Shown piece by piece: positions 2,923-58,848 of a stretch of 64,000 nt of DNA. The translations under genes and the position numbers were made by a program. Position 1 is the first letter of the stretch. Each line of letters opens with the position of its first letter. The DNA is from a phage. The stretch lies in the NCBI GenBank assembly GCA_009015555.1, contig GCA_009015555.1_3613.1, one strand, 5' to 3'. A model generated the notes under the pieces. The model searched no databases. It had not been told where the DNA came from and saw only the letters and a list, made by a program, of their open reading frames with translations.

Positions 2923-2982
2923 TTCCCTCCGGCCCCCGTGCGGGGCCATCCTCCTCCAATCCCGCCTCCGGAGAAGCAAGTA

Positions 2983-5900
2983 ATGGCACAATATGAAGAT
3001 AAGGTCGTGGAAGTTCTGGTGACTCTCCCGGAACCGTCTGCGAGCACCTCTGGTGGTTCTGGTGCGCCTTTCACGGGCATCGAAACCCAAGACACCGTAT
3101 CCACCACACTGATTGGTGATGGTACTCAATCCTCCCCTCTGCAAGCAAACATCAACATCTCCCGTCGTTCAGGAAACCGCCTCCAAGTGGTGAGCACCTC
3201 CAGTGAGCAGGGTCTGTATGTTGCTGGCTCCGACACCAAGGTGTCTGCTAAGGATGGGAACACCGTAACTTACATCTCCGCCCAAGATGCGGCTAACGCT
3301 GGCAACCCGGCCCTGGAAGGTGTATACTCTGATCCGGTGAACGTGTCAACCACGTCACCGAAGAAGACTCTGGAAATTAAGGCTGATCCTACCGGGAAAG
3401 CCAAGACCCAAATCGACGTGATCGTTGATCCAGATTCCATGAACGCCCTGAAGGTAGGCACTGCTGGCCTGAGCGTTCCTGTTTCTGTGGCTCAAGACAA
3501 CACTCTGGAAATCCGCCAGGGTGCTCTGTACGTCCGCCCGCAAGAGACTAAAATCTCCCAAGACCCAAACAACAAGATTCAAGTCAAGTCTGACGGGATT
3601 TACGTTGACACTGTAAAAGGTGATAAAGGTGATACCGGGGCAACTGGCCCGGAAGGCCCTCAAGGCCCACAGGGAGACCCGGGTCCTCAAGGTCCGCAAG
3701 GCCCGCAGGGCGATAAGGGTGATAAAGGTGACACCGGGGACGTAGGACCAGCGGGGGCAACTGGCCCGGCAGGGGCACAGGGTGCTCGTGGCCCAGAAGG
3801 TCCGAAAGGCCCGGCTGGTATTGGTATCAACGTCATCGATCAGCTTGACGAAGTTTCTCAGCTTCCGGCTGTTGCGGAAATGGAACTGGGCGACACTTAC
3901 GTTATTGGACAGAATTTCTGGACCGTTGTCAACGAAAACAACGTGAAGCAGTGGAAGGACATCGGTAACTTCGCGGGGCCTGAAGGTCTGTCTGCTTATG
4001 AAGTTGCAGAAGGCGCGGGCTTCGTTGGTACTGTTGATGAGTGGCTGGAATCCCTGAAAGGGGCTGACGGTATCGGTCTGCAAATTCTTGGTTCCTTCCC
4101 TGACCCGTCCTATCTGCCTGATGAAGGTAACAAGCCGGGTGACTGCTACATCATCCAAGACATGATGTATGTGTGGACAGGTGATGAAGATGGGTGGCAG
4201 ACTGTAGGTCAGATTGGCCCAGAGGGTAAATCTGCGTATCAGGTATGGCTGGCTAACGGTCACACCGGATCTCAGGTTGACTTTCTGAACTCCCTGGTTG
4301 GCCCACAAGGACCGAAAGGTGATAAAGGCGACAAAGGTGATACGGGTGCTGACGGTACTAACGCCAACGCCATCAACCTCTTGGGTAAAGTCGCAGACGA
4401 AGCGAGCCTCCCGGCTGGCGCGGATGCAGGCGATGCCTACCTGATCGGAACTAGCGTTTGGGTCTCCACTGGCAATGACAACTGGGAAAACCTCGGTGCC
4501 TTCCAAGGCCCTAAAGGTGATCAGGGGGATGTCGGCCCTGCTGGCCCGAAAGGCGACAAGGGGGACGCAGGTGACGTAGGCAAAGACAACTACGCATTGG
4601 CGGTAGAGAACGGGTTCCAAGGTTCCCTGAGCGACTACCTGGCATCTCTCAAAGGTGCGAAGGGCGACACTGGCCCGACTGGTCCGCGTGGTCTTACTGG
4701 TCCGCAGGGTGTGAAAGGTGACGCAGGGGAAGGTCTTGCGATCCTCGGATCAAAAGCTGATCCTTCAGAACTACCTTCCAATCCAGTAACTGGTGATGCG
4801 TGGCTGATCGGAGAAGACCTGTACATCTTCAACGGCACTGCTTGGGAGAATGCAGGCCCTGTCCGTGGTCCGAAAGGTGACACCGGAGCCACTGGCCCGG
4901 CTGGAGCTAAGGGTGACAAGGGTGACCAAGGCGAGAAAGGCGACAAGGGTGACCAAGGTGATGTCGGCCCGGCTGGCCCGGAAGGTCCGCAGGGGACTGG
5001 TCTGACGCCGAAAGGTTCTGTTCCTACAGTAGCAGATCTTCCTGACCAAGACAACACCAAAGGCGACTTCTGGGCTGTAGAGGAAGATGGCAATGGTTAC
5101 GCTTGGGATGGGTTGCAGTGGGTTGTTACTGGCCTGACTCGCGGCCCGCAAGGCGAGAAAGGCGACAAGGGCGACAAAGGGGATAAAGGTGATCCGGGGG
5201 ATACTGGTGCCACAGGCGCAGGTGTTATTCCGAAGGGAACTGTAACCTCTGCTGCGACCCTGCCTCCTACCGGGAACACCGTCGGTGATTACTACGTCAC
5301 TGAGGATACTGGGACCGGATACTCTTGGAACGGGACAACCTGGGTTGACTTGGGAGTTGTGCGTGGACCGCAAGGACCGCAGGGCGACAAAGGTGATACC
5401 GGAGACCAAGGTCCGCAAGGTGTGAAAGGTGACACTGGTGCTACAGGCCCTCAAGGCCCGCAAGGTGACATCGGCCCGGGCGTTGAGATCATGGGTAAAC
5501 TCAACAGCACCTCAGAACTGCCTTCAACCGGGCAACTGGGTCAGGGTTACCTGATTGACGGCGACTTCTGGGGATGGACTGGCTCTGCCTACGAAAACCT
5601 TGGACGTATCCAAGGCCCGGTTGGTCCTACTGGTCCTACTGGTGACCCAGGCCCTACGGGTCCGCAGGGTGTCAAGGGTGATAAGGGTGATCAAGGTTCC
5701 TTGTGGATCGTGTTCGACCATGACCCGGGTCCTGCTGATGGTCGTGTAGGTGACTACTTCCTTAACTCCTCAACGTTGCAGTTCTTCCGCAAGACGAACG
5801 CAACCACTTGGGCACCGATGGGTTACATGGGTGGCGGTAACGTTTACGATTCCCCGAAAGACGGCAAGCAGTACGCTCGTATCGACGGGGATTGGGAACT

Positions 5901-6264
5901 GGTCGAAGTTCTGGAAGCGCCTCAAGACAACGGCTACTACGTCCGTGCGAACGGTGCGTGGCAGAAACTGGATCGCTACGACCTGCGTGTCATGTCCGCA
6001 ACTGGCGCACTGGATGCTTCTGTATCCAACGTGTTCACCGTTGACGGAACCACGTCTAAGGCAATCACCATCTCCAACCTGCCAGCGGGTCGTGCGATGA
6101 CTGTGGTTGTTAAGTTCCTCGGTAAAGGTGGGTCCATGACTTGGCCTTCTCCGATGGCATGGTCTAACGGCACCCAGCCAGCACTTGGTACTACCCGTAC
6201 CATCCTGACGTTCTTCTGGGACGGCACGGACCTGACTGGTGTTCAGGCAATGACTGTAGACTAA
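2983..6264 (+). CDS. collagen-like fibre protein (multiple G-X-Y triple-helix blocks alternating with about 45-aa fibre repeats, C-terminal globular domain)
   Basis: Start moved to ATG at 2983 (RBS GGAG; N-terminus [11 protein letters not shown] resembles sheath-like gene at 11084); many [19 protein letters not shown]-type repeats; repeated LP..GD.Y/W..G..W....W.N.G modules. Confidence 0.8.
3604..5700 (+). repeat. tandem collagen G-X-Y coding repeats (ggtgataaaggtgacaccgg-type units)
   Basis: Repeated GGT GAY AAR GGY GAY ACY GG and CCN CAR GGN units visible across the gene. Confidence 0.7.
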
Positions 6265-6270
6265 TACCCC

Positions 6271-6290
6271 AAGGGGGCTTCGGCCCCCTT
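6271..6290 (+). promoter_or_regulatory. GC hairpin with UUCG tetraloop (AAGGGGGC-UUCG-GCCCCCUU), no U-tract
   Basis: Perfect 8-bp stem immediately after collagen gene stop; followed by RBS of next gene rather than a T-run. Confidence 0.4.
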
Positions 6291-6305
6291 CACAAGGAGA
6301 TTCAA

Positions 6306-6956
6306 ATGGCTGTAGATCCTACCAGCAAGGTTTATGCTTGGACACCGATGATTCGTTTGTCCGACATGAAATATCCTGTCTATCTTAGCGACTTCCTCAA
6401 AGAACATACTAACGTAAGTATTGGTTCTTACGTTTGGGAAAAGGACATGCGAGACCTGTGGGGTTATTGCATGGTTCATGATTCTGAAGTTCCTATTGGT
6501 GATGTGGTCACCGAAGGAAAACCGGAACTAAACGAAGAAGATGACCTGTGGTACAAGACTTGGGTTGCTCGTGATTTCTCCCCAGAAGAGATCGCAGAGA
6601 ACTTGGCCCGCGCCAAGGAAGATTATCGTACCCGTGCGTATCAGCAATATACCTCTGACCTTCAGTCGGGTGTGGCTGTTGACGGCGACGTTTTCTCTGT
6701 TGAACCACGAGAACTCCTGAACCTTGAACTGTCCAAAGCGTTTGCGTTTGCAAACTCTGAATCGGATGTTCTGATTCGCAAAGCTGATTACACAGTTTTG
6801 ACTCTACCGTCTGCGGATGCTGTTGTCAAGATTGATGAAATCCTGGCTGCAACTGCCAAGGTCCACCAGAACCTGTTGGCATACGTAAAAACTGTGTATG
6901 ACACCGAAGTCATCACAGACATCCCTGAAGTTCCTCAAACTTTCGTAGGAGAATAA
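6306..6956 (+). CDS. hypothetical protein (possible fibre assembly factor, by position)
   Basis: 216-aa ORF with RBS AAGGAGA; between two collagen-like genes. Confidence 0.55.
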   Translation: MAVDPTSKVYAWTPMIRLSDMKYPVYLSDFLKEHTNVSIGSYVWEKDMRDLWGYCMVHDSEVPIGDVVTEGKPELNEEDDLWYKTWVARDFSPEEIAENLARAKEDYRTRAYQQYTSDLQSGVAVDGDVFSVEPRELLNLELSKAFAFANSESDVLIRKADYTVLTLPSADAVVKIDEILAATAKVHQNLLAYVKTVYDTEVITDIPEVPQTFVGE

Positions 6957-6957
6957 C

Positions 6958-7269
6958 ATGGCAGCAATTGGCGGAGCATCCCTTGGTGTCCTGACTGGTT
7001 ACCAGATCATGGACCAAGCAACAGGAGAGAGCAAGACCATCTCTGAACTTTTTGCAGGTGGTGGCGGTACTCCCGGCCCGAAAGGTGACAAAGGTGATAC
7101 GGGAGACACTGGACCAGCAGGTCCAGCAGGCCCGGCGGGGGCAGCAGGTGCAGACGGTGTTGGAATCGCTGACATCGCAGCGGCTCGCTCAGGCGATACT
7201 GTAACTCTAACCTTCACCATGTCTGACTCTACAACGAAGACTGCATCTTTCGACCTTCCAGCCGCATAA
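6958..7269 (+). CDS. small collagen-like protein
   Basis: 103 aa; [34 protein letters not shown] block; RBS GGAGAA. Confidence 0.65.
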   Translation: MAAIGGASLGVLTGYQIMDQATGESKTISELFAGGGGTPGPKGDKGDTGDTGPAGPAGPAGAAGADGVGIADIAAARSGDTVTLTFTMSDSTTKTASFDLPAA

Positions 7270-7274
7270 TTAAT

Positions 7275-7296
7275 CCGCCCTTAGGGGCGGTTTTTG
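7275..7296 (+). terminator. rho-independent terminator
   Basis: CCGCCC-TTAG-GGGCGG stem followed by TTTTT. Confidence 0.55.
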
Positions 7297-7312
7297 TACA
7301 TAAGGAGACTGT

Positions 7313-8683
7313 ATGGGAACAATGAGGGGTATCACAGGGGAGCAGAACGGTGTATACTTCGGGTATGCACTTTACGATCTCGTTAACGAAAAACTTATCC
7401 CCTTTGACCAAATTGGCGAGGGGGGATCTTCTGTACCCGGCCCACAGGGTCCTCAAGGGGAGAAGGGGGATAAGGGAGACCCCGGTCCTCAAGGACCTCA
7501 AGGTGTCCAAGGAGAGCCGGGCAATCCTGGTGAACCAGGCCCTCAAGGGGAACAAGGCCCTCAGGGCGAGGCAGGGGAAATTGGTCCTCAAGGACCTCAG
7601 GGACCAGTAGGACCAACAGGCCCTCAGGGCGAGAAAGGGGAGAGGGGTGAACCAGGCCCTCAAGGTCCTGAAGGCCCTGCTGGCCCGCAAGGGGAACAGG
7701 GACCCGCCGGGGCAACAGGCCCCGTTGGACCTTCCGGTGCGACAGGTCTTGTATGGAGAGGGAACTATGATGATTCAGTCTCCTACGACGTTAACGATGC
7801 AGTTGGGTATCAGGGTGCCACATATTTCTCTACTCAGCCATCCACAGGTATCCCACCGGAATCTACTGGTACAAGGGTTAACGACCACTGGGCACTAATG
7901 GCCTCAGAAGGTGCGCCGGGACCAGTAGGTCCAGCAGGACCAACAGGCCCGCAGGGTTTGCAAGGACCAGTAGGACCCGCAGGGCCTTCCGGTGCGACAG
8001 GTCCTGCCGGACCCGCCGGACCACAAGGAGAGCAAGGCCCTCAAGGGCTACAAGGACCACAAGGTCAGCGAGGTATTCAAGGTGTTCCGGGTGAAAAAGG
8101 GGAAAAGGGAGATCAAGGACCAGTAGGTCCGGCAGGCCCTGCTGGCCCGCAAGGGGAACAGGGACCTCAGGGGGAGACTGGCCCTAAGGGAGATAAGGGT
8201 GACAATGCCCTCCCGACCATTTCTGGGATTTATGCCTCCCCGATCAACAAAACGAACTCTTGGATTCAACTCCCCGGTAACAACTTGGGGAATGTTCGTC
8301 TTATTCTCTCTGCAAACAACAATGTCTCTCAGACCCGAGTTGGTTTCTCCGCAGGAACTTCGTCAGTGGCGAAGAGGATCGGATTCTCTTATGCACTAAC
8401 AACAACTTACACGGACGTAAATCGTATTAAGACCGGGAGAACCGGCCCCACCTCGATCTCAAATACAGTAGTTTATCCGTCGGACTCTACTATCAACGTG
8501 GGGTTCGGCGACAAGGTAGTCCTTGTTGTTTTTTGCCACGACACCCTTGAAGCATGGGAAGTGACAGTGGCAGGGGTTGCCCAAAAAACTGCTGTGGGCG
8601 ACACAAGTGGGCGTTTGGCTGTACATGCAGTACAGATCTCCGGGGACAGTACGTTACTCACAGGTAATGTCTACAACCCATAA
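7313..8683 (+). CDS. collagen-like protein (two long G-X-Y regions, C-terminal globular domain)
   Basis: 456 aa; RBS AAGGAG; long [19 protein letters not shown] repeats. Confidence 0.75.
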
Positions 8684-29967: not shown

Positions 29968-31200
29968 TTAGAAGGGGATGTCATCGTCGAAATCAACTTC
30001 CGGCGGAGTCATGTCGATATGACCGTTGCTGCTTGTCGCAGGAGTCGATTGTAGAGTCTCCGGTTTAGGGTCCACCTTAGGGTCAGGCTGGGACTGTGCA
30101 GTTTGTGCCACAGAGCCACCAGAACTTTGCTCACCCTTGACGTATGCAGATACGCCCGGGACAACCTCGCTCATGAGACCACGAGCATAAGCCAACAGCT
30201 TACCAGTGATCTCTTCTGGATTGTCGTTCTCACCAACCTGGATATCACGGGTGGCGTTCAGAACAGCATGGCCCACCATCGCACCCAGATCGTAATCAGA
30301 CATACCCTTGTTAGCCGGATCATTTGCAGCGTCCAGCTTCAGATGTTTGGTGACATCATGAACAACCTTGGCTACTTCCACCACCGGAGGGATAGTCAGA
30401 CCGCTACGACGCAGGTTCAGGGCACCGTTCAGTGCATGGCCCGTTTCCATACCGGAGTTGTCCTTCTTGAAACCACCTTTGGAACCGCCCGCACCTGCAC
30501 CAGCAGAACCTTTTGGACCGTAGGCTTTGAAACCTGACAATGTACCATCCTCAGCACGTTGCCCTGCCAGGCGACCACCCACCTGAACTTGGGCGATCTG
30601 CTCTTTGTTCAGAACCACAGAGACTTCATTACCGTTCTCATCCTTCACCACAGCGCCTGTATCGCTCAGGGAGAGGATTTCTCCGTAAACCTTAGTGGTT
30701 TTGCCACCTGGGGCGTTGGACGACGCAGAGGACGTCTGAGAGCCTCCTGCATTGCCTGCCGGGGCGGCATCACGGGCACCGGATTTGTCGGTAATAACGA
30801 TCTTGGATTTCTTACCCTCCGGGGCAGAGCGTTCGTTGCCGTCACTATCAGTCCACTTACGGATCTGGACAGGAACACGAATTGCCATACCCGGCTTCAG
30901 GTCAACCCATACTTCGCCTTCTTTTACCTGATACTGGCTTTCGTATTTCATGTTCTTCACTTCGTGAGTTCCGAAGCTGATCCACACCTGATCTTCACCG
31001 TTTTTAACCAGCAGAGATGCACGGTGAGTGGCAACGATAGTCTTACCCTTGTTCGGACCCTTGTTAATGGGGGTAATTTTCGGACTGCCGTCCTCGTTGA
31101 TGCGTTTAATGTTGATACGTTCGATAGTACCAACAGCCAGGCTTACCGTAGAGTTGTCGATCGGGTTAACTACTTCGGTAATTACTTTAACATCAGACAT
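29968..31200 (-). CDS. single-stranded DNA-binding-like protein with host-SSB-type acidic C-terminal tip (…VDFDDDIPF)
   Basis: 410 aa; RBS AAGGAGAAG; C-terminal nonapeptide matches the E. coli SSB C-terminal tip DFDDDIPF; Gly/Ser-rich linkers; N-terminal region compatible with OB fold. Confidence 0.5.
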   Translation of the reverse strand: MSDVKVITEVVNPIDNSTVSLAVGTIERINIKRINEDGSPKITPINKGPNKGKTIVATHRASLLVKNGEDQVWISFGTHEVKNMKYESQYQVKEGEVWVDLKPGMAIRVPVQIRKWTDSDGNERSAPEGKKSKIVITDKSGARDAAPAGNAGGSQTSSASSNAPGGKTTKVYGEILSLSDTGAVVKDENGNEVSVVLNKEQIAQVQVGGRLAGQRAEDGTLSGFKAYGPKGSAGAGAGGSKGGFKKDNSGMETGHALNGALNLRRSGLTIPPVVEVAKVVHDVTKHLKLDAANDPANKGMSDYDLGAMVGHAVLNATRDIQVGENDNPEEITGKLLAYARGLMSEVVPGVSAYVKGEQSSGGSVAQTAQSQPDPKVDPKPETLQSTPATSSNGHIDMTPPEVDFDDDIPF

Positions 31201-31285: not shown

Positions 31286-31471
31286 TTACCAGACACCGAA
31301 CCAAACGCCGACCCCGTGGATAACACCGACCGGGGCGAAGATAGCACCCGCAATCAGGAACAGCCACGACGCAGTTTTGATACACACCACAACGTGGGTG
31401 ATCCATGCGACGATGGATGCGATTACGATTGCCAGCCAACCCAGACCTAAACCTGCCAGTAACTTGTTCAT
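31286..31471 (-). CDS. small membrane protein (2 TM)
   Basis: 61-aa hydrophobic ORF with RBS AAAGGAGAGG. Confidence 0.5.
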   Translation of the reverse strand: MNKLLAGLGLGWLAIVIASIVAWITHVVVCIKTASWLFLIAGAIFAPVGVIHGVGVWFGVW

Positions 31472-31483
31472 TTCCTCTCCTTT

Positions 31484-31861
31484 TTACAAATAGACGCGCT
31501 GCACCTCTTTGTCTGCTTGATCAAACATCAAGTTTGCAGCATTAATGTCCTTAATCATCTCCTCCGTCATCTGATCCGGGCGCAATGCCCGCAGTGAACG
31601 TTTGAAGAGGACTTTCGGATCTTCAGTTACATCTCCCGACACATCGAACATCTTGATGATCATCTTCACCGGAACCTCACGAGAAATCTGTCCGCCGACG
31701 TTGATGGCGTATGTAGCCCCTACTTCAACTTGACGGTGGTCCAGTTCGTACATCAGATTCAGGTTAACGTATTTGTATTCGTCGCAGCGAGTAATGTTCT
31801 TCTGTGCCTGAACACAAACCCAGCCCGGCTCAACAAAAGTGTTATCGAAAATGCTCATCAT
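31484..31861 (-). CDS. hypothetical protein
   Basis: 125-aa ORF with RBS GAGGAAG. Confidence 0.55.
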   Translation of the reverse strand: MMSIFDNTFVEPGWVCVQAQKNITRCDEYKYVNLNLMYELDHRQVEVGATYAINVGGQISREVPVKMIIKMFDVSGDVTEDPKVLFKRSLRALRPDQMTEEMIKDINAANLMFDQADKEVQRVYL

Positions 31862-31889: not shown

Positions 31890-31917
31890 AGTATACCTAC
31901 ATTCCCGTAGAAGTCAA
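31890..31917 (-). promoter_or_regulatory. sigma70-like promoter (TTGACT, 16-nt spacer, TATACT)
   Basis: -35 at 31917..31912 and -10 at 31895..31890 read on minus strand; overlaps stop of upstream gene. Confidence 0.4.
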
Positions 31918-32564
31918 CTTACTTTTGAAATTACCAGTTTTTGAACGTAGCCCTGCAACAGGGCGTAAGTTACACCACCCACATAACTACCGCCGACAGA
32001 GAGTCTCTCTCCGGCACCGAACCAGTTGGGAACAGAAAAGTTCTGAACTTCCCCGCTCACCATATTTCTCACACGGATCTGCCGAGAGTCCGGGTAAGTT
32101 TCGATCCGCAGATTAAAAACTTGGCCCTGATTACCATTGATCGAGCAACGAACATAATTTCCGCTGTTGTCTGTTGGGAACAATTGGTGCCCTCCAACCC
32201 CAACCATGCCATAATGCGCCAGTCCGGCGACGATCCTTGTGACGTAATCGCCAGAACACCACACCATCTGGGTTGCAGAAGGACTAAGGCTTTGGAAAAC
32301 AACCTCAATCACCATAGGATCTGTGGATAGATCCACTGAATACTGAGTTTGGAAATACCCTTGGCCTTGGGCAGGTATGAACTGCATGACCCTTCCAATC
32401 CCTGCAACATCGACTATCCTTGGGCCTGTGCCGACCAAAGAGAAGGTGTGGTTTTCAGACCAGTCCTTCAAAACAGTCTCGCCGAGAGATTGCCGTGTGG
32501 CATCCACGTAGAGAATGGCATCCTCTTTGCGAGATGACTTCCCTATAATCATTATCTCGTTCAT
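31914..32564 (-). CDS. N-tag family paralog E: ConA/LamG-like jelly-roll protein (N-terminus MNEIMIIGKSS)
   Basis: Track ORF 31914..32567 trimmed to ATG; LamG-like pattern; N-terminal motif shared with four other genes. Confidence 0.55.
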   Translation of the reverse strand: MNEIMIIGKSSRKEDAILYVDATRQSLGETVLKDWSENHTFSLVGTGPRIVDVAGIGRVMQFIPAQGQGYFQTQYSVDLSTDPMVIEVVFQSLSPSATQMVWCSGDYVTRIVAGLAHYGMVGVGGHQLFPTDNSGNYVRCSINGNQGQVFNLRIETYPDSRQIRVRNMVSGEVQNFSVPNWFGAGERLSVGGSYVGGVTYALLQGYVQKLVISKVS

Positions 32565-32935
32565 CAATTTCTCCGAGGTTTTAAAACACCTGATTTTGAA
32601 AGAGGGATCTCATCGGCATCTCTGCCTTTCTCTCCATCTTTCCCGTCCTTCCCGGCCTTTCCTGGTTTGCCCTCCGGGCCTGCCGGACCCGCTGGACCTG
32701 GCACATAAACATACTGCGGTTCAGTAAACGCTGCAATAAACAGCAGTATTGCCCAAGCAACACCATTCACCCACAGTGCAGGCCACATTGAAAAGAATAC
32801 CGACAGCGCCAGAATCAACATCGTATTCCGATGTTCTCTCTTGCGGGCCACGAAGTAAGGGACCAGCCAGAACAGTACAAATACCCAGGCCGAGCCTGAG
32901 AACAACGACCACATCACATCGACAAACTCTGTCAT
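32564..32935 (-). CDS. membrane protein with short collagen-like segment
   Basis: 123 aa; three hydrophobic helices then [27 protein letters not shown]. Confidence 0.5.
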   Translation of the reverse strand: MTEFVDVMWSLFSGSAWVFVLFWLVPYFVARKREHRNTMLILALSVFFSMWPALWVNGVAWAILLFIAAFTEPQYVYVPGPAGPAGPEGKPGKAGKDGKDGEKGRDADEIPLSKSGVLKPRRN

Positions 32936-33228
32936 TTGATCAGCCCCTCTTGGATTTTAATTTGGAGGATCTCCGCATCGATCGAGTAGGTATTGCTGGT
33001 TCGGGTGTAATCTGCATCCCGGTATCGACACATCACACCTTTGGCCTCGCCGTCTCGCTGGACCACCCAGCTTGTGTCATAATTGGGTTGGCTCTTACAC
33101 ACCTTGTGTAATGCCACTACCTCGGTCGGCATCAGCGATTTCTTCGACTCATAATGATCTGGTTTCCCGTCATCGAAAGGATTGCATCCCGAAAGCAGGA
33201 GCGCCGTTAATAAAATCAGTTTCTTCAC
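32932..33228 (-). CDS. lipoprotein (signal peptide with lipobox LLSGC)
   Basis: Track ORF 32932..33306; likely GTG start giving MKKLILLTALLLSGC-NPF; preceded by GGGGGTGG. Confidence 0.45.
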   Translation of the reverse strand: MKKLILLTALLLSGCNPFDDGKPDHYESKKSLMPTEVVALHKVCKSQPNYDTSWVVQRDGEAKGVMCRYRDADYTRTSNTYSIDAEILQIKIQEGLIK

Positions 33229-33377
33229 ATCCACCCCCAGTATTTCGAAAGTTCTGTGGAGATCATGATCCCCACGACATAAGTCATTGAGAAAACCACG
33301 GTCCAATACATGAACCGGGTCCCAGCCATCGCTACCATAATGAACAATATAACAAAAGTTTCAGGCGCGATCAACAT
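33225..33377 (-). CDS. small membrane protein (50 aa, 2 TM), not in ORF track
   Basis: ATG 1 nt after upstream stop; hydrophobic MLIAPETFVILFIMVAMAG...; stop overlaps lipoprotein start. Confidence 0.35.
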   Translation of the reverse strand: MLIAPETFVILFIMVAMAGTRFMYWTVVFSMTYVVGIMISTELSKYWGWM

Positions 33378-33790: not shown

Positions 33791-33828
33791 TTCATCACTC
33801 CTCAAGGTAAAACGTTATTCCACAGGAT

Positions 33829-33844
33829 GGGGGCCGAAGCCCCC
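33829..33844 (-). promoter_or_regulatory. GC hairpin with UUCG loop (GGGGGCUUCGGCCCCC), no U-tract
   Basis: Perfect stem in intergenic region after gene 33857..34549. Confidence 0.4.
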
Positions 33845-33856
33845 GATATTACTTAC

Positions 33857-34549
33857 TTAATCACAGGACGAGGAACTTGAACCGCTGTCATACGAACTGG
33901 AGTCGTAAGAACTGCTGGAAGAAGAACCATAGCTCGAACTGCTGTAGCTGTCGTCAGAAGACGAGTAGCTTGAACTGTACGTTGAGGTCGCAGAGGAACT
34001 GCGGCACTCTTCCACCGGGGCAGGCTGCGCCGCCGGGGTGTCGTCACTCAGGATCGCTCCGGCTGCATAGCCGTACATCGCCGCGTTTACGGGATCAATA
34101 CCGTGAGAAACGACATGACCACCTGTGCTGTGCGGGGTATCGTCAAGACGTCGGCTTGGGGCCGGAGAACCGGACATCTTAGCCTGCTTGATGAACTGAC
34201 GCTTCGCCTTCGGCGGTAGAGTCTTACCCTTCGCATACGCTGGCAGTTCCACACCTTTAAGCTGCTCGTTCAGAGGCTTTGGTGGGGTCTTTTCCACCGG
34301 GGCCTCACGAACAGTCTGGCGAGTTTCTACTGTCACCACGCGCTTGGTGTTTTCTGCTACATTTGCACTTACCAAGACTTGGTTCTTTTCCAGAGGCTCG
34401 TCCAGCGGACGGGTTTCAGCCTTGGTAAAGCGTACCTGACTTACGGTCTGGGCCTGAGATTGTTTGGCGATATACTCGTCAACCTTTGCGTCTTCGATCT
34501 TCGCCGGGGCGAACAGGGCTTTGATCCACGCCACAAATTTCTTGATCAT
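33857..34549 (-). CDS. hypothetical protein with Ser/Tyr-rich low-complexity C-terminal tail
   Basis: 230 aa; RBS AGGAGA; C-terminus SSSATSTYSSSYSSSDDSYSSSSYGSSSSSSYDSSSYDSGSSSSSCD. Confidence 0.55.
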   Translation of the reverse strand: MIKKFVAWIKALFAPAKIEDAKVDEYIAKQSQAQTVSQVRFTKAETRPLDEPLEKNQVLVSANVAENTKRVVTVETRQTVREAPVEKTPPKPLNEQLKGVELPAYAKGKTLPPKAKRQFIKQAKMSGSPAPSRRLDDTPHSTGGHVVSHGIDPVNAAMYGYAAGAILSDDTPAAQPAPVEECRSSSATSTYSSSYSSSDDSYSSSSYGSSSSSSYDSSSYDSGSSSSSCD

Positions 34550-58120: not shown

Positions 58121-58129
58121 ACACTCCCC

Positions 58130-58318
58130 TTAATCGTGAGCCAAACAAGCAGTGATTACAGTTGCCAAGAGGAACATCAAGGCTCCCCACCCCATCAAAT
58201 ACGGGACCTGGGATGAGAACTGTGCCATCATCTCAGGGAAAAAGAACTGTGCGCCCCAGCGGGCCGGGAATATCCAAACCAGCATGAATGTAATGAACAG
58301 AATGATAAGATTTCTCAT
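58130..58318 (-). CDS. small membrane protein (2 TM), holin-like by size and position
   Basis: 62 aa, hydrophobic; RBS AGAGGAAAAGG; start overlaps stop of hydrolase gene. Confidence 0.45.
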   Translation of the reverse strand: MRNLIILFITFMLVWIFPARWGAQFFFPEMMAQFSSQVPYLMGWGALMFLLATVITACLAHD

Positions 58319-58848
58319 GTCGCCTTTTCCTCTTTTGGTTTATAAAACACATGGTAGCCGATAGTGGCTGTTTTCGTAAAGAACTTTCTCCAGTATGGCT
58401 TGACCTTCTTCGTGTGGAAGTGAGTCGCACCATGTGTTGGGTCCAGCTTGTTGTACAATACCTCATTATTCCGGATCTTGTAAAGGAATCTCGCAATATC
58501 TTGTGCGACCATCCAAGACTCCCGATCCCTGACTGCATAGCCGTTTCTTGCCATTGTCCAGGAAAATTGTGCAGATTGATACACAACCTTCCTGACTGAC
58601 CCGGGATACCCGTCGTGCTTTAGCCTGTTCAGAGTAACAAATCCAACCGCCATCTGTCCACTGATATTTTCCCCACGCGACTCGAAATAAATATTGCAGG
58701 CCAGTGCGTTGACCGACGAGTCATTGTTTTTGCACACATGAACAACCGGGGCGAGCTTTTTCTTCGGTGCGTTATCTTTTGCCAAAGCAGATACTGGGGC
58801 GAAAGATAAAGCGCTGGCTGCGAATAGTGCAGCGATGCTCTTTTTCAT
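58315..58848 (-). CDS. secreted cell-wall hydrolase, SleB-type
   Basis: 177 aa; N-terminal signal peptide MKKSIAALFAASALSFAPVSALA; NIYFESRGE...GQMAVGFVTLNRL motif of SleB-type hydrolases. Confidence 0.6.
   Translation of the reverse strand: MKKSIAALFAASALSFAPVSALAKDNAPKKKLAPVVHVCKNNDSSVNALACNIYFESRGENISGQMAVGFVTLNRLKHDGYPGSVRKVVYQSAQFSWTMARNGYAVRDRESWMVAQDIARFLYKIRNNEVLYNKLDPTHGATHFHTKKVKPYWRKFFTKTATIGYHVFYKPKEEKAT

What the first reader, a model, noticed from the sequence alone, without database searches (positions are those of the whole stretch)
32564..33377. Small membrane protein, lipoprotein and membrane collagen-like protein in a coupled unit
Three overlapping minus-strand genes: a 50-aa two-helix membrane peptide (not in the ORF track), a lipoprotein with lipobox LLSGC, and a membrane protein with a short G-X-Y segment. 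The arrangement resembles exclusion lipoprotein systems (Llp or Cor-like) or an unusual spanin pair. It is followed directly by one of the N-tag paralogs.
Basis: inference. Interest (0 to 1): 0.55.

Follow-up and report, generated by a model that had tools for sequence, protein, structure and literature searches.

The report
Phage superinfection-immunity-like envelope gene cassette
Three tightly coupled genes of a Cronobacter/Enterobacter-type virulent phage encode a small membrane peptide, a lipoprotein of unknown fold and a membrane protein whose core resembles phage T4's superinfection-immunity protein Imm but carries a collagen-like stalk with an invariant tip. The set most likely stops a second phage from injecting its DNA and is not a lysis (spanin) device.

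Summary
Three overlapping minus-strand genes are real and under purifying selection (dN/dS 0.03-0.22): p50 (33377-33225), a lipoprotein (33228-32932, lipobox LSGC) and a 123-aa membrane protein with nine G-X-Y triplets (32935-32564). The window is a Certrevirus (Vequintavirinae, CR3/CR8-like).

The new result concerns the third protein. Its membrane domain is a remote relative of T4 Imm (PF14373). Pfam hits are sub-threshold in 18/20 homologues, phrog_1039 gives E 3.7e-8, and hhalign gives 90% probability against at most 1.6% for 31 shuffled or reversed controls. T4 Imm residues P26, A30 and R33 align. Its G-X-Y tract varies in length and ends in an invariant peptide, G[KR]DADEIPLSK[SA]GVLKPR.

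The lipoprotein has no known fold relative. It keeps its lipobox in 35/35 relatives and has two further conserved cysteines. It always sits directly upstream of the Imm-like gene, in four phage clades.

A canonical Rz/Rz1 spanin pair lies elsewhere in every relative, and CB7 and phiTE have deleted the cassette. A spanin role is therefore unlikely. The resemblance to Llp/Cor covers the signal peptide only.

Best reading (about 0.45): an accessory superinfection-exclusion module. I rate it a new variant of a known kind. Nothing here tests function.

The parts
33225..33377 (-). p50: 50-aa small membrane peptide with two hydrophobic helices (about 2-19 and 22-40) and a single Arg21 between them. 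Its start overlaps the stop of upstream p144.
   Evidence: phrog_22594, E 2.7e-33. Annotated as KaOmega gp40 and unannotated in CR3/CR8. 76% identical in a phage where the neighbouring genes are 40-56% identical. dN/dS 0.10-0.20. CB7 keeps only its first 21 codons.
32932..33228 (-). Lipoprotein precursor, 98 aa, GTG start. Mature part is 83 aa: an acidic linker followed by a compact alpha+beta domain with two conserved Cys (C44, C67).
   Evidence: AF2 mean pLDDT 81, with the core above 90. No fold relative in the PDB or BFVD. Only 11 clusters among 1.84 billion representatives. dN/dS 0.035-0.195.
33184..33195 (-). Lipobox L12-S13-G14-C15 (signal peptidase II site). The +2 residue is Asn.
   Evidence: A lipobox is found in 35/35 family members scanned. 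The +2 residue is N in 12, D in 12, K in 4, F in 3, L in 2, G in 1 and R in 1.
32564..32935 (-). 123-aa membrane protein: an Imm-like four-helix membrane domain, a collagen-like stalk and an invariant C-terminal peptide.
   Evidence: phrog_15593. UniRef names the CR8/PBES02 orthologues 'Superinfection immunity protein'. dN/dS 0.08-0.22.
32720..32935 (-). Imm_superinfect-like membrane domain (residues 1-72). It has an acidic N-tail, helices 2-23, 25-32, 38-49 and 51-70, and a basic loop A30-R-K-R33-E-H-R-N37.
   Evidence: PF14373 matched in 18/20 homologues, best 25 bits against a gathering score of 27.9. phrog_1039 at E 3.7e-8 and 5e-6 for distant members. hhalign to the T4 Imm family: 90% probability, E 1.5e-6, 60 columns. 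Controls reach at most 1.6%. AF2 helices. Charge distribution.
32618..32698 (-). Collagen-like tract: nine uninterrupted G-X-Y triplets (G80-D106). Its length varies among homologues from 3 to about 10 triplets. In E. coli phage A5-4 it is expanded by fibre-like 'SAYxxY...EWLxSLxG' modules.
   Evidence: PF01391 at 23 bits, below the gathering score of 27.2, for the window protein; several orthologues carry PF01391. Alignment A1. A5-4 and SSBI34 sequences. Tail-fibre PHROG hits confined to this tract.
32573..32626 (-). Invariant C-terminal tip peptide G104-R-D-A-D-E-I-P-L-S-K-S-G-V-L-K-P-R121. It shares its first triplet with the G-X-Y tract.
   Evidence: D106-S113, G116 and V117 are invariant in 20/20 sequences although overall identity falls to 40%. 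The tip is recognisable in A5-4 (GKDADELPLSKKGV), SSBI34 (GRDAEEIPLSKRGV) and Serratia phages (GKDAIPMSKAGNL). It is not repeated elsewhere in the window.

Best explanation
The unit is an accessory envelope module of a virulent Certrevirus. Its most likely job is superinfection exclusion at the genome-entry step.

Shown by the sequence:
- The three genes are translationally linked by overlapping stop and start codons.
- They are conserved as a set.
- The third protein has a T4 Imm-like membrane core in which the counterparts of Imm P26, A30 and the functionally important R33 are kept.

Inferred:
1. p50 and the Imm-like protein insert into the inner membrane. The N-terminus is periplasmic and the basic R-x-H-R-N loop is cytoplasmic.
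2. The G-X-Y tract trimerises into a short stalk of variable length and presents the invariant C-terminal peptide, probably in the periplasm.
3. The lipoprotein is exported, lipidated at C15 and disulfide-bonded (C44-C67). It acts in the periplasm as the partner of the Imm-like protein, possibly by binding the invariant tip.
4. As reported for T4 Imm, which binds the tape-measure protein gp29, the membrane core prevents the tape-measure protein of an incoming related phage from opening a channel in the inner membrane. The second genome is then left outside the cytoplasm.

The lipoprotein may add a periplasmic block, analogous to T4 Spackle but not homologous to it.
For: 1. Imm relationship. 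PF14373 is matched by 18/20 homologues at up to 25 bits. phrog_1039 'immunity to superinfection' gives E 3.7e-8 for SSBI34 and 5e-6 for A5-4. Profile-profile hhalign to the T4 Imm family gives 90% probability and E 1.5e-6 over 60 columns. The reversed profile and 30 column-shuffled profiles reach at most 1.6%. In that alignment P26, A30 and R33 coincide with T4 Imm P26, A30 and R33. R33A impairs T4 Imm, and Imm binds the tape-measure protein (bioRxiv 10.64898/2026.03.06.709160). AF2 gives four helices, as described for T4 Imm.

2. Module behaviour. The lipoprotein and the Imm-like gene co-occur in essentially the same 28-29 phage records. They are adjacent with overlapping codons in Certrevirus, in the E. 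coli 'Septuagintavirus' phages, in Salmonella SSBI34 and, as a non-lipidated exported homologue, in Serratia phages.

3. Dispensability. CB7 and phiTE have deleted the block from codon 22 of p50 through the 61-aa membrane-protein gene (p61, 31286-31471), just upstream of the p410 homologue. These phages are viable, as expected for an accessory competition function.

4. Envelope targeting. A lipobox is present in 35/35 members and there are exactly two further Cys in all but one. The charge pattern is acidic N-tail and basic loop.

5. Lysis functions are encoded elsewhere.
Against: - No functional data exist for any member.
- The window protein itself scores only 11.8 bits on PF14373, and no member reaches Pfam's gathering score.
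- Foldseek of the AF2 model against viral predicted structures found no Imm match.
- PF14373 is a broad family and only T4 Imm has a tested function.
- The topology of the C-terminal tail is unresolved. The 33-residue hydrophobic stretch 38-70, with conserved P52, could cross the membrane once (tail periplasmic) or form a helical hairpin (tail cytoplasmic). A cytoplasmic tail could not touch the lipoprotein.
- The T4 Imm W50 loop falls in an alignment gap.
- No promoter typical of early genes was found directly upstream.
- The role of p50 is unknown, and p50 is absent from the Serratia clade.
Confidence: 0.45

Rival explanations
1. A second, unconventional spanin-like or lysis-timing device. 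The inner-membrane protein with its collagen stalk and the outer-membrane lipoprotein would bridge the periplasm and help disrupt, or control the timing of disruption of, the envelope at lysis. p50 would act as a holin- or antiholin-like peptide.
For: - The pairing of a lipoprotein with an inner-membrane protein, with overlapping genes, superficially recalls Rz/Rz1.
- phrog_6073 'Rz-like spanin' hits the lipoprotein at E 2e-4.
- T4 imm mutants have partial lysis-inhibition defects, and Imm has been said to resemble a holin (PMC6832632).
- No holin has been validated experimentally in Certrevirus.
Against: - The spanin PHROG hit covers only residues 1-26, the signal peptide.
- A canonical Rz (phrog_4297) / Rz1 (phrog_1267) pair is present in all relatives, e.g. 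CR3 148483-148851 at 94% identity.
- The SleB-like endolysin and candidate holin lie 25 kb away.
- Gene order is lipoprotein first, and the membrane protein is multi-helical with no coiled coil.
- 12/35 lipoproteins have Asp at +2, the inner-membrane retention signal.
- CB7 and phiTE lack the cassette yet lyse their hosts.
Confidence: 0.08
2. Llp/Cor-type receptor masking. The lipoprotein alone blocks the phage's outer-membrane receptor from the periplasmic side, preventing adsorption of further phage and loss of progeny on debris. The Imm-like protein would be an independent neighbour.
For: - It is a small phage lipoprotein with a conserved disulfide, as in T5 Llp (PMC9586334, listed).
- The window copy has Asn at +2, which predicts outer-membrane sorting.
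- phrog_1119 'Cor' hits at E 3e-4.
Against: - The Cor hit is confined to residues 1-24.
- There is no fold similarity to any solved structure.
- One third of family members carry Asp at +2, and the Serratia homologues have no lipobox Cys at all. An outer-membrane anchor is therefore not conserved.
- Strict adjacency to the Imm-like gene across four clades argues for a joint function.
Confidence: 0.1
3. Another envelope function unrelated to exclusion. Examples are protection of the infected cell's membrane against host abortive-infection or membrane-targeting defences, or remodelling of the envelope for efficient infection in particular hosts.
For: - The dispensable block deleted in CB7 holds three membrane proteins and a lipoprotein (p50, lipoprotein, Imm-like protein, p61) together with variable genes.
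- PF14373 proteins are widespread in bacteria and their function there is unknown.
- No PADLOC defence family matches.
Against: - The only member of the Imm family with a tested function acts in superinfection exclusion.
- No specific evidence points to any alternative target.
Confidence: 0.2
4. The three genes are merely adjacent small ORFs with unrelated or no functions, and the G-X-Y tract is low-complexity drift copied from the phage's collagen-like fibre genes.
For: - The phage carries several long collagen-like structural genes (2938-6264, 6958-7269, 7313-8683) that could donate G-X-Y DNA.
- G-X-Y length varies freely.
Against: - All three genes are under purifying selection.
- The tip peptide after the variable tract is invariant.
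- Order and overlaps are conserved down to 37-45% identity in several clades.
Confidence: 0.05

Closest known systems
Phage T4 Imm (immunity to superinfection; Pfam PF14373 Imm_superinfect; phrog_1039)
   Same: - Small inner-membrane protein of a virulent myovirus.
- Acidic N-terminus, a first long helix ending in a conserved L-P-x-x-(I/V)-A motif, and a basic residue at position 33, followed by a second long hydrophobic segment.
- Profile-profile probability 90%.
- AF2 predicts four helices, as described for Imm.
   Different: - Below Pfam's gathering score.
- A six-residue insertion lies where the T4 W50 loop aligns.
- It carries a 50-aa (up to 120-aa) C-terminal collagen/fibre-like stalk with an invariant tip, instead of T4's short 'VIIIREKE' tail.
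- It is always paired with an exported two-Cys protein and often with a small 2-TM peptide. T4 imm stands alone.
Phage T4 Spackle (gp61.3), periplasmic inhibitor of the tail lysozyme gp5
   Same: - A small (75-83 aa mature) exported phage protein with one disulfide.
- It works alongside Imm in T4 exclusion (PMC7677548).
- This offers a possible analogy for the lipoprotein.
   Different: - Spackle is an all-alpha bundle with a cleaved signal peptide.
- The protein here is predicted alpha+beta and lipidated, and it shows no structural or sequence match to Spackle.
- No tail lysozyme target has been identified.
Rz/Rz1 two-component spanins
   Same: An inner-membrane protein and a lipoprotein encoded by overlapping genes, both facing the periplasm.
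   Different: - Reversed gene order.
- A multi-helix Imm-like anchor with a collagen-like rather than coiled-coil periplasmic part.
- Outer-membrane sorting of the lipoprotein is not conserved.
- A genuine Rz/Rz1 pair exists elsewhere in these genomes.
- The cassette is dispensable.
Exclusion lipoproteins Llp (T5) and Cor (phi80/N15/HK022); Ltp (Streptococcus phage TP-J34)
   Same: - Small phage-encoded lipoproteins that block entry of further phage.
- Ltp is discussed in relation to the tape-measure protein (PMC3952083, listed).
   Different: - There is no homology beyond the signal peptide and no fold match.
- Those proteins act alone, whereas this one is coupled to an Imm-like membrane protein.
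Bacterial and phage collagen-like proteins (Scl1/Scl2, phage tail-fibre G-X-Y segments; PF01391)
   Same: - Uninterrupted, charge-rich G-X-Y triplets.
- In A5-4 the tract is combined with the 'SAYxxY...EWLxSLxG' modules typical of phage fibre shafts.
   Different: - Only 3-10 triplets.
- Attached to an integral membrane domain rather than to a virion or cell-wall anchor.
- Followed by a short invariant peptide rather than a globular head.

Membership tests
T4 Imm / Pfam PF14373 Imm_superinfect | Sequence match to the family model at or above Pfam's gathering score (27.9 bits) | tested here: not met
   The window protein scores 11.8 bits and the best family member 25.0 bits. 18/20 members match at sub-threshold level. 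UniRef nevertheless names two orthologues 'Superinfection immunity protein'.
T4 Imm / Pfam PF14373 Imm_superinfect | Remote homology detectable by profile-profile comparison and not explained by hydrophobic composition | tested here: met
   hhalign A5 against A4 gives 90% probability, E 1.5e-6, over 60 columns. The reversed control and 30 column-shuffled controls reach at most 1.6%. phrog_1039 gives E 3.7e-8 and 5e-6 for distant members.
T4 Imm / Pfam PF14373 Imm_superinfect | Conserved core residues: L-P-x-x-I-A motif and Arg33 (R33A impairs T4 Imm); Trp50 loop that faces the tape-measure protein | tested here: inconclusive
   P26 and A30 are invariant, and R33 is invariant in A1 and nearly invariant in A5 (Lys in SSBI34). 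All three align with T4 P26, A30 and R33. The W50 position falls next to a six-residue gap. W51 and W55 exist in Certrevirus copies but not in distant ones.
T4 Imm / Pfam PF14373 Imm_superinfect | Inner-membrane location with periplasmic N-terminus | not testable with these tools
   Prediction only: acidic N-tail (0 K/R, and 1-2 D/E in all but one member), basic loop 29-38 (+2 to +5), four predicted helices.
T4 Imm / Pfam PF14373 Imm_superinfect | Blocks genome entry of a superinfecting phage by binding its tape-measure protein | not testable with these tools
   Requires plating, DNA-entry and pull-down experiments.
Two-component spanin (Rz/Rz1) | i-spanin: a single N-terminal TMD followed by a periplasmic coiled-coil domain | tested here: not met
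   Four predicted helices within residues 2-70, then G-X-Y triplets and no coiled coil.
Two-component spanin (Rz/Rz1) | o-spanin: a lipoprotein sorted to the outer membrane, encoded within or after the i-spanin gene | tested here: not met
   A lipobox is present, but the lipoprotein gene comes first. 12/35 family members have Asp at +2, the retention signal, and the Serratia homologues lack the Cys.
Two-component spanin (Rz/Rz1) | Homology to known spanin families, and being the genome's spanin | tested here: not met
   Only residues 1-26 hit phrog_6073. A genuine Rz (phrog_4297) / Rz1 (phrog_1267) pair is present in all relatives. The cassette is deleted in CB7 and phiTE.
Llp / Cor exclusion lipoproteins | Sequence or fold homology of the mature protein | tested here: not met
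Llp / Cor exclusion lipoproteins | Binds and inactivates the phage's outer-membrane receptor | not testable with these tools
   The receptor is unknown and adsorption assays are needed.
Bacterial lipoprotein (signal peptidase II substrate) | Positive n-region, hydrophobic h-region and a lipobox [LVI][ASTVI][GAS]C | tested here: met
   MKK-LILLTALL-LSGC15. A lipobox is found in 35/35 family members.
Bacterial lipoprotein (signal peptidase II substrate) | Actual lipid modification and membrane sorting | not testable with these tools
   Needs globomycin sensitivity or palmitate labelling, and membrane fractionation.
Collagen triple-helix repeat (PF01391) | Run of uninterrupted G-X-Y triplets recognised by the family model | tested here: inconclusive
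   Nine triplets (residues 80-106). The window protein scores 23 bits against a gathering score of 27.2, while several orthologues carry PF01391 in precomputed annotation.
Collagen triple-helix repeat (PF01391) | Formation of a trimeric triple helix | not testable with these tools
   Monomer AF2 leaves residues 86-114 below pLDDT 50. A multimer prediction or biophysical measurement is needed.
T4 Spackle | All-alpha bundle fold that inhibits the tail lysozyme | tested here: not met
   The predicted fold is alpha+beta and no PDB match was found.

The most novel reading that the evidence does not exclude
A new architecture for phage superinfection exclusion. A T4 Imm-type inner-membrane core is extended by a trimeric collagen-like stalk of variable length. 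The invariant C-terminal peptide of that stalk docks onto a dedicated disulfide-bonded periplasmic (lipo)protein of novel fold. Together with a small 2-TM peptide, this would form a periplasm-reaching trap for the tip or tape-measure protein of an incoming contractile tail. It would be the first collagen-like element used in a phage-encoded envelope immunity complex.
Probability: 0.2. Interest if true: 0.7.

Novelty: new variant of a known kind. Interest (0 to 1): 0.5.

Why it matters
Superinfection exclusion by virulent phages is understood mechanistically almost only for T4 (Imm and Spackle) and T5 (Llp). A 2026 preprint reports that T4 Imm works by binding the tape-measure protein.

This cassette would give a second, architecturally different Imm-type system, in phages (Certrevirus and relatives) that are being developed for biocontrol of Cronobacter, Pectobacterium, Enterobacter and E. 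coli.

- If it excludes related phages, it affects how such phages can be combined in cocktails. CB7 and phiTE, which lack it, would be predicted to be excluded without excluding in return.
- The invariant tip peptide, the variable-length stalk and the strictly co-inherited periplasmic partner are concrete handles for testing how an Imm-type protein senses or blocks an incoming tail.

Tried and rejected
- **Spanin reading:** rejected. See the membership tests.
- **Llp/Cor homology of the lipoprotein:** rejected. The hits cover the signal peptide only.
- **Structural confirmation of the Imm relationship:** Foldseek of the Imm-like model against BFVD found nothing significant. The PDB profile search gave only a chance rhodopsin hit.
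- **Wider distribution:**
  - The HMM search of 1.84 billion representatives found only 11 lipoprotein clusters.
  - The bacterial genome scan found 18 occurrences of the pattern G[KR]DADEIPL and no relative, about what chance predicts.
  - The IMG/VR scans found only Certrevirus-like contigs, plus three contigs of an unrelated phage carrying DADEIPLSKAG in a tail protein, which is probably chance.
  - One alignment was too divergent for the search for related loci.
- **Tip peptide as a copy of one of the phage's own fibre proteins:** rejected. Only the G-X-Y part matches other genes in the window.
- **Horizontal-transfer signal:** GC content and skew of the block are unremarkable. The tandem-repeat search found only a 2.2-copy 9-bp unit.
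- **Promoter and terminator scan:** no convincing dedicated promoter.
- **T4 Imm topology paper** (Lu et al. 1993, PMC237878): could not be read, so the orientation of the C-terminus remains open.
- **'N-tag paralog' remark:** not reproducible.
Full report
**Context**

The window is a Certrevirus (Vequintavirinae). Region 31400-34600 matches Cronobacter phages CR3, CR8 and PBES02 at 94-96% identity, and Enterobacter, Klebsiella and Pectobacterium relatives at 78-93%. Structural genes run on the plus strand up to about 29.9 kb. A long leftward unit of small genes and replication genes starts at 64 kb and ends at 29968. The finding lies near the 3' end of that leftward unit.

**Observation**

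The minus strand carries a chain of genes joined by overlapping stop and start codons:
- p144 (33805-33371)
- p50 (33377-33225)
- a lipoprotein starting at GTG 33228 and ending at 32932
- a 123-aa protein (32935-32564)
- p217 (32564-31914)

Each of the three central genes has a plausible Shine-Dalgarno sequence.
- p50 has two hydrophobic helices.
- The lipoprotein begins MKKLILLTALLLSGC.
- The third protein has hydrophobic segments at 9-30 and 38-70 and nine uninterrupted G-X-Y triplets (residues 80-106).

All three belong to PHROG families of unknown function. They are annotated 'hypothetical' in relatives, and p50 is annotated only in KaOmega. They evolve under purifying selection, with dN/dS of 0.03-0.22.

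The remark about an adjacent 'N-tag paralog' could not be reproduced. Neither neighbour has a paralogue in the window.

**The third protein**

An alignment of 20 homologues (A1) shows three parts.

1. *A membrane domain (residues 1-72).* W9, W17, W23, P26, A30, R33, R36, N37, S49 and P52 are invariant.
   - It matches Pfam PF14373 (Imm_superinfect) in 18 of 20 members. All matches are below the gathering score: best 25 bits against 27.9, and 11.8 bits for the window copy.
   - Distant members hit phrog_1039 'immunity to superinfection' at E 3.7e-8 and 5e-6.
   - UniRef already calls the CR8 and PBES02 orthologues 'Superinfection immunity protein'.
   - A profile of the domain aligned to a profile of T4 Imm and its relatives gives 90% probability and E 1.5e-6 over 60 columns. 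The reversed T4 profile and 30 column-shuffled T4 profiles reach at most 1.6%. The match is therefore not a by-product of hydrophobic composition.
   - The residue numbering happens to coincide: P26, A30 and R33 align with T4 Imm P26, A30 and R33.
   - A 2026 preprint reports that T4 Imm binds the helical-bundle domain of the tape-measure protein gp29, that R33A and W50A impair exclusion, and that the Imm N-terminus is periplasmic.
   - AF2 predicts four helices (2-23, 25-32, 38-49, 51-70) with pLDDT 85-91. This is the same count as described for Imm.

2. *A G-X-Y tract of variable length.* It runs from three to about ten triplets. In E. coli phage A5-4 it is expanded to about 120 residues by 'SAYxxY...EWLxSLxG' modules typical of phage fibre shafts.

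3. *An invariant C-terminal peptide, G[KR]DADEIPLSK[SA]GVLKPR.* It is recognisable even in the Salmonella, E. coli and Serratia clades. A variable spacer followed by an invariant tip suggests a stalk that presents a binding peptide.

**The lipoprotein**

- All 35 family members examined keep a lipobox, and all but one have exactly two further cysteines (C44, C67). This is consistent with an exported, disulfide-bonded protein.
- AF2 gives a confident small alpha+beta domain (helix 34-45, strands 50-58, 61-70 and 80-84, helix 85-93; core pLDDT above 90) behind a flexible acidic linker.
- The family is tiny: 11 clusters among 1.84 billion representatives.
- The +2 residue after the lipidated Cys is Asn in 12 members and Asp in 12. 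From established knowledge of Lol sorting in enterobacteria, Asp at +2 retains lipoproteins in the inner membrane. The anchoring membrane is therefore not conserved.
- In Serratia phages the homologue has a signal sequence without the Cys.
- What is conserved is export to the periplasm and the position directly upstream of the Imm-like gene.

**Module behaviour**

- tblastn over 50,697 phage records finds the lipoprotein and the Imm-like protein in essentially the same records: all Certreviruses except CB7 and phiTE, six E. coli 'Septuagintavirus' phages, and Salmonella SSBI34.
- The most divergent metagenomic copy, at 40% identity, keeps the order 142-50-98-105 aa with 4-nt overlaps.
- CB7 retains only the first 21 codons of p50 and then jumps to the p410 homologue. 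The whole block from p50 to p61 has been deleted in a viable phage lineage.
- p50 is conserved in Certrevirus and Septuagintavirus. SSBI34 has a different unannotated 2-TM ORF at the same position. The Serratia clade has none.

**Lysis genes are elsewhere**

- The CB7 paper describes a canonical Rz/Rz1 pair (CB7_252/253) next to the terminase and a SleB-like endolysin with a candidate class II holin.
- CB7_252 and CB7_253 match spanin PHROGs.
- CB7_252 (Rz) has homologues in every cassette-bearing phage, e.g. CR3 148483-148851.
- These genes lie outside the window.
- The SleB-like endolysin is at 58321-58848, with the holin candidate just downstream.

Taken with the reversed gene order, the multi-helix membrane partner, the non-conserved outer-membrane sorting and the natural deletion, this makes a spanin role unlikely. 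The lipoprotein's PHROG hits to spanin and Cor families cover only the signal peptide.

**Mechanism proposed**

Shown:
- gene coupling and co-inheritance;
- the Imm-like core with the functionally important Arg conserved;
- export signals.

Inferred:
- The Imm-like protein sits in the inner membrane, N-terminus out and basic loop in.
- The G-X-Y tract trimerises.
- The tip peptide and the lipoprotein meet in the periplasm.
- The lipoprotein may play a Spackle-like periplasmic role without being homologous to Spackle.

The main uncertainty is topology. Residues 38-70 form one 33-residue uncharged stretch with a conserved Pro52. This stretch could be one kinked span, giving a periplasmic tail, or a helical hairpin, giving a cytoplasmic tail. 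I favour the periplasmic tail, mainly because of the strictly coupled exported partner.

AF2 weakly pairs the strand YVYV (75-78) with VLKP (117-120). That raises an alternative in which the G-X-Y tract is a loop rather than a stalk (low confidence).

**Comparison and novelty**

The closest known system is T4 Imm. Membership of PF14373 fails Pfam's own threshold but is supported by profile-profile evidence with controls. The stalk, the tip peptide and the obligatory exported partner are not features of any described Imm protein, and I found no paper describing them. I rate this a new variant of a known kind.

No experiment bears on function, so confidence in the exclusion mechanism is moderate (0.45).

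Noticed in passing
window 29968-31200 (-): The 410-aa protein that closes the leftward unit (phrog_4477, unknown function) ends in ...PPEVDFDDDIPF. From my own knowledge, this is identical to the C-terminal tip of E. coli SSB that recruits host replication and repair proteins. It may be an SSB-like protein or an SSB-tip mimic.
   Followed up: no
window 31914-32564 (-): p217 (phrog_6011 'virion structural protein') is coupled to the cassette by a 1-nt overlap but is mosaic. It is 94% identical to KaOmega gp37, only about 33% identical to CR8 gp038, and absent from CR3. It has no Pfam, PDB or in-window paralogue match.
   Followed up: partly
window 31286-31861 (-): A DUF7325 protein (31484-31861) and a 61-aa two-helix membrane protein (31286-31471, phrog_7319) belong to the same block that CB7 and phiTE have deleted. 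DUF7325 co-occurs with the cassette in nearly the same phage records.
   Followed up: partly
L019 518-1188 and L018 1040-1687 (Serratia phages ChuuTotoro and Kashira): These phages carry a diverged version of the pair. The first gene encodes an exported two-Cys protein without a lipobox Cys. The second encodes an Imm-like/G-X-Y protein ending GKDAIPMSKAGNL. In Kashira the first gene is split by a frameshift in a run of A's, which is either a sequencing error or a pseudogene.
   Followed up: partly
L010 about 2290-2460 (Salmonella phage SSBI34): An unannotated small ORF with two hydrophobic helices occupies the p50 position upstream of the lipoprotein gene. It is not obviously homologous to p50.
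   Followed up: no
L009 2754-2942 (E. coli phage A5-4): An extra 62-aa ORF lies between the lipoprotein gene and the Imm-like gene. The Imm-like protein here is 190 aa, with two or three fibre-shaft-like repeats in its tail.
   Followed up: partly
L015 5410-7467 (-) (IMG/VR contig of an unrelated low-GC phage): The 11-residue string DADEIPLSKAG also occurs near the C-terminus of a 685-aa tail protein that is followed by holin and amidase genes. By rough estimate the number of such matches is about what chance allows.
   Followed up: partly
window 33857-34549 (-): The 230-aa protein upstream (phrog_13005) has a striking Ser/Tyr-rich low-complexity C-terminus (SSSATSTYSSSYSSSDDSYSSSSYGSSSSSSYDSSSYDSGSSSSSCD).
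   Followed up: no
window 33828-33845: A GC-rich hairpin (GGGGGCCGAAGCCCCC) lies in the short gap between p230 and p144. It could be a transcript-processing or stability element within the leftward unit.
   Followed up: no
window 58124-58848 (-): The phage's SleB-like endolysin, which has a signal peptide and is 90% identical to CB7_83, lies here with the candidate class II holin just downstream. This is about 25 kb from the cassette. The Rz/Rz1 pair is outside the window.
   Followed up: yes
window 2938-8683 (+): Three structural genes carry long collagen-like G-X-Y tracts (2938-6264, 6958-7269, 7313-8683). They are a possible source of the G-X-Y DNA in the Imm-like gene.
   Followed up: partly
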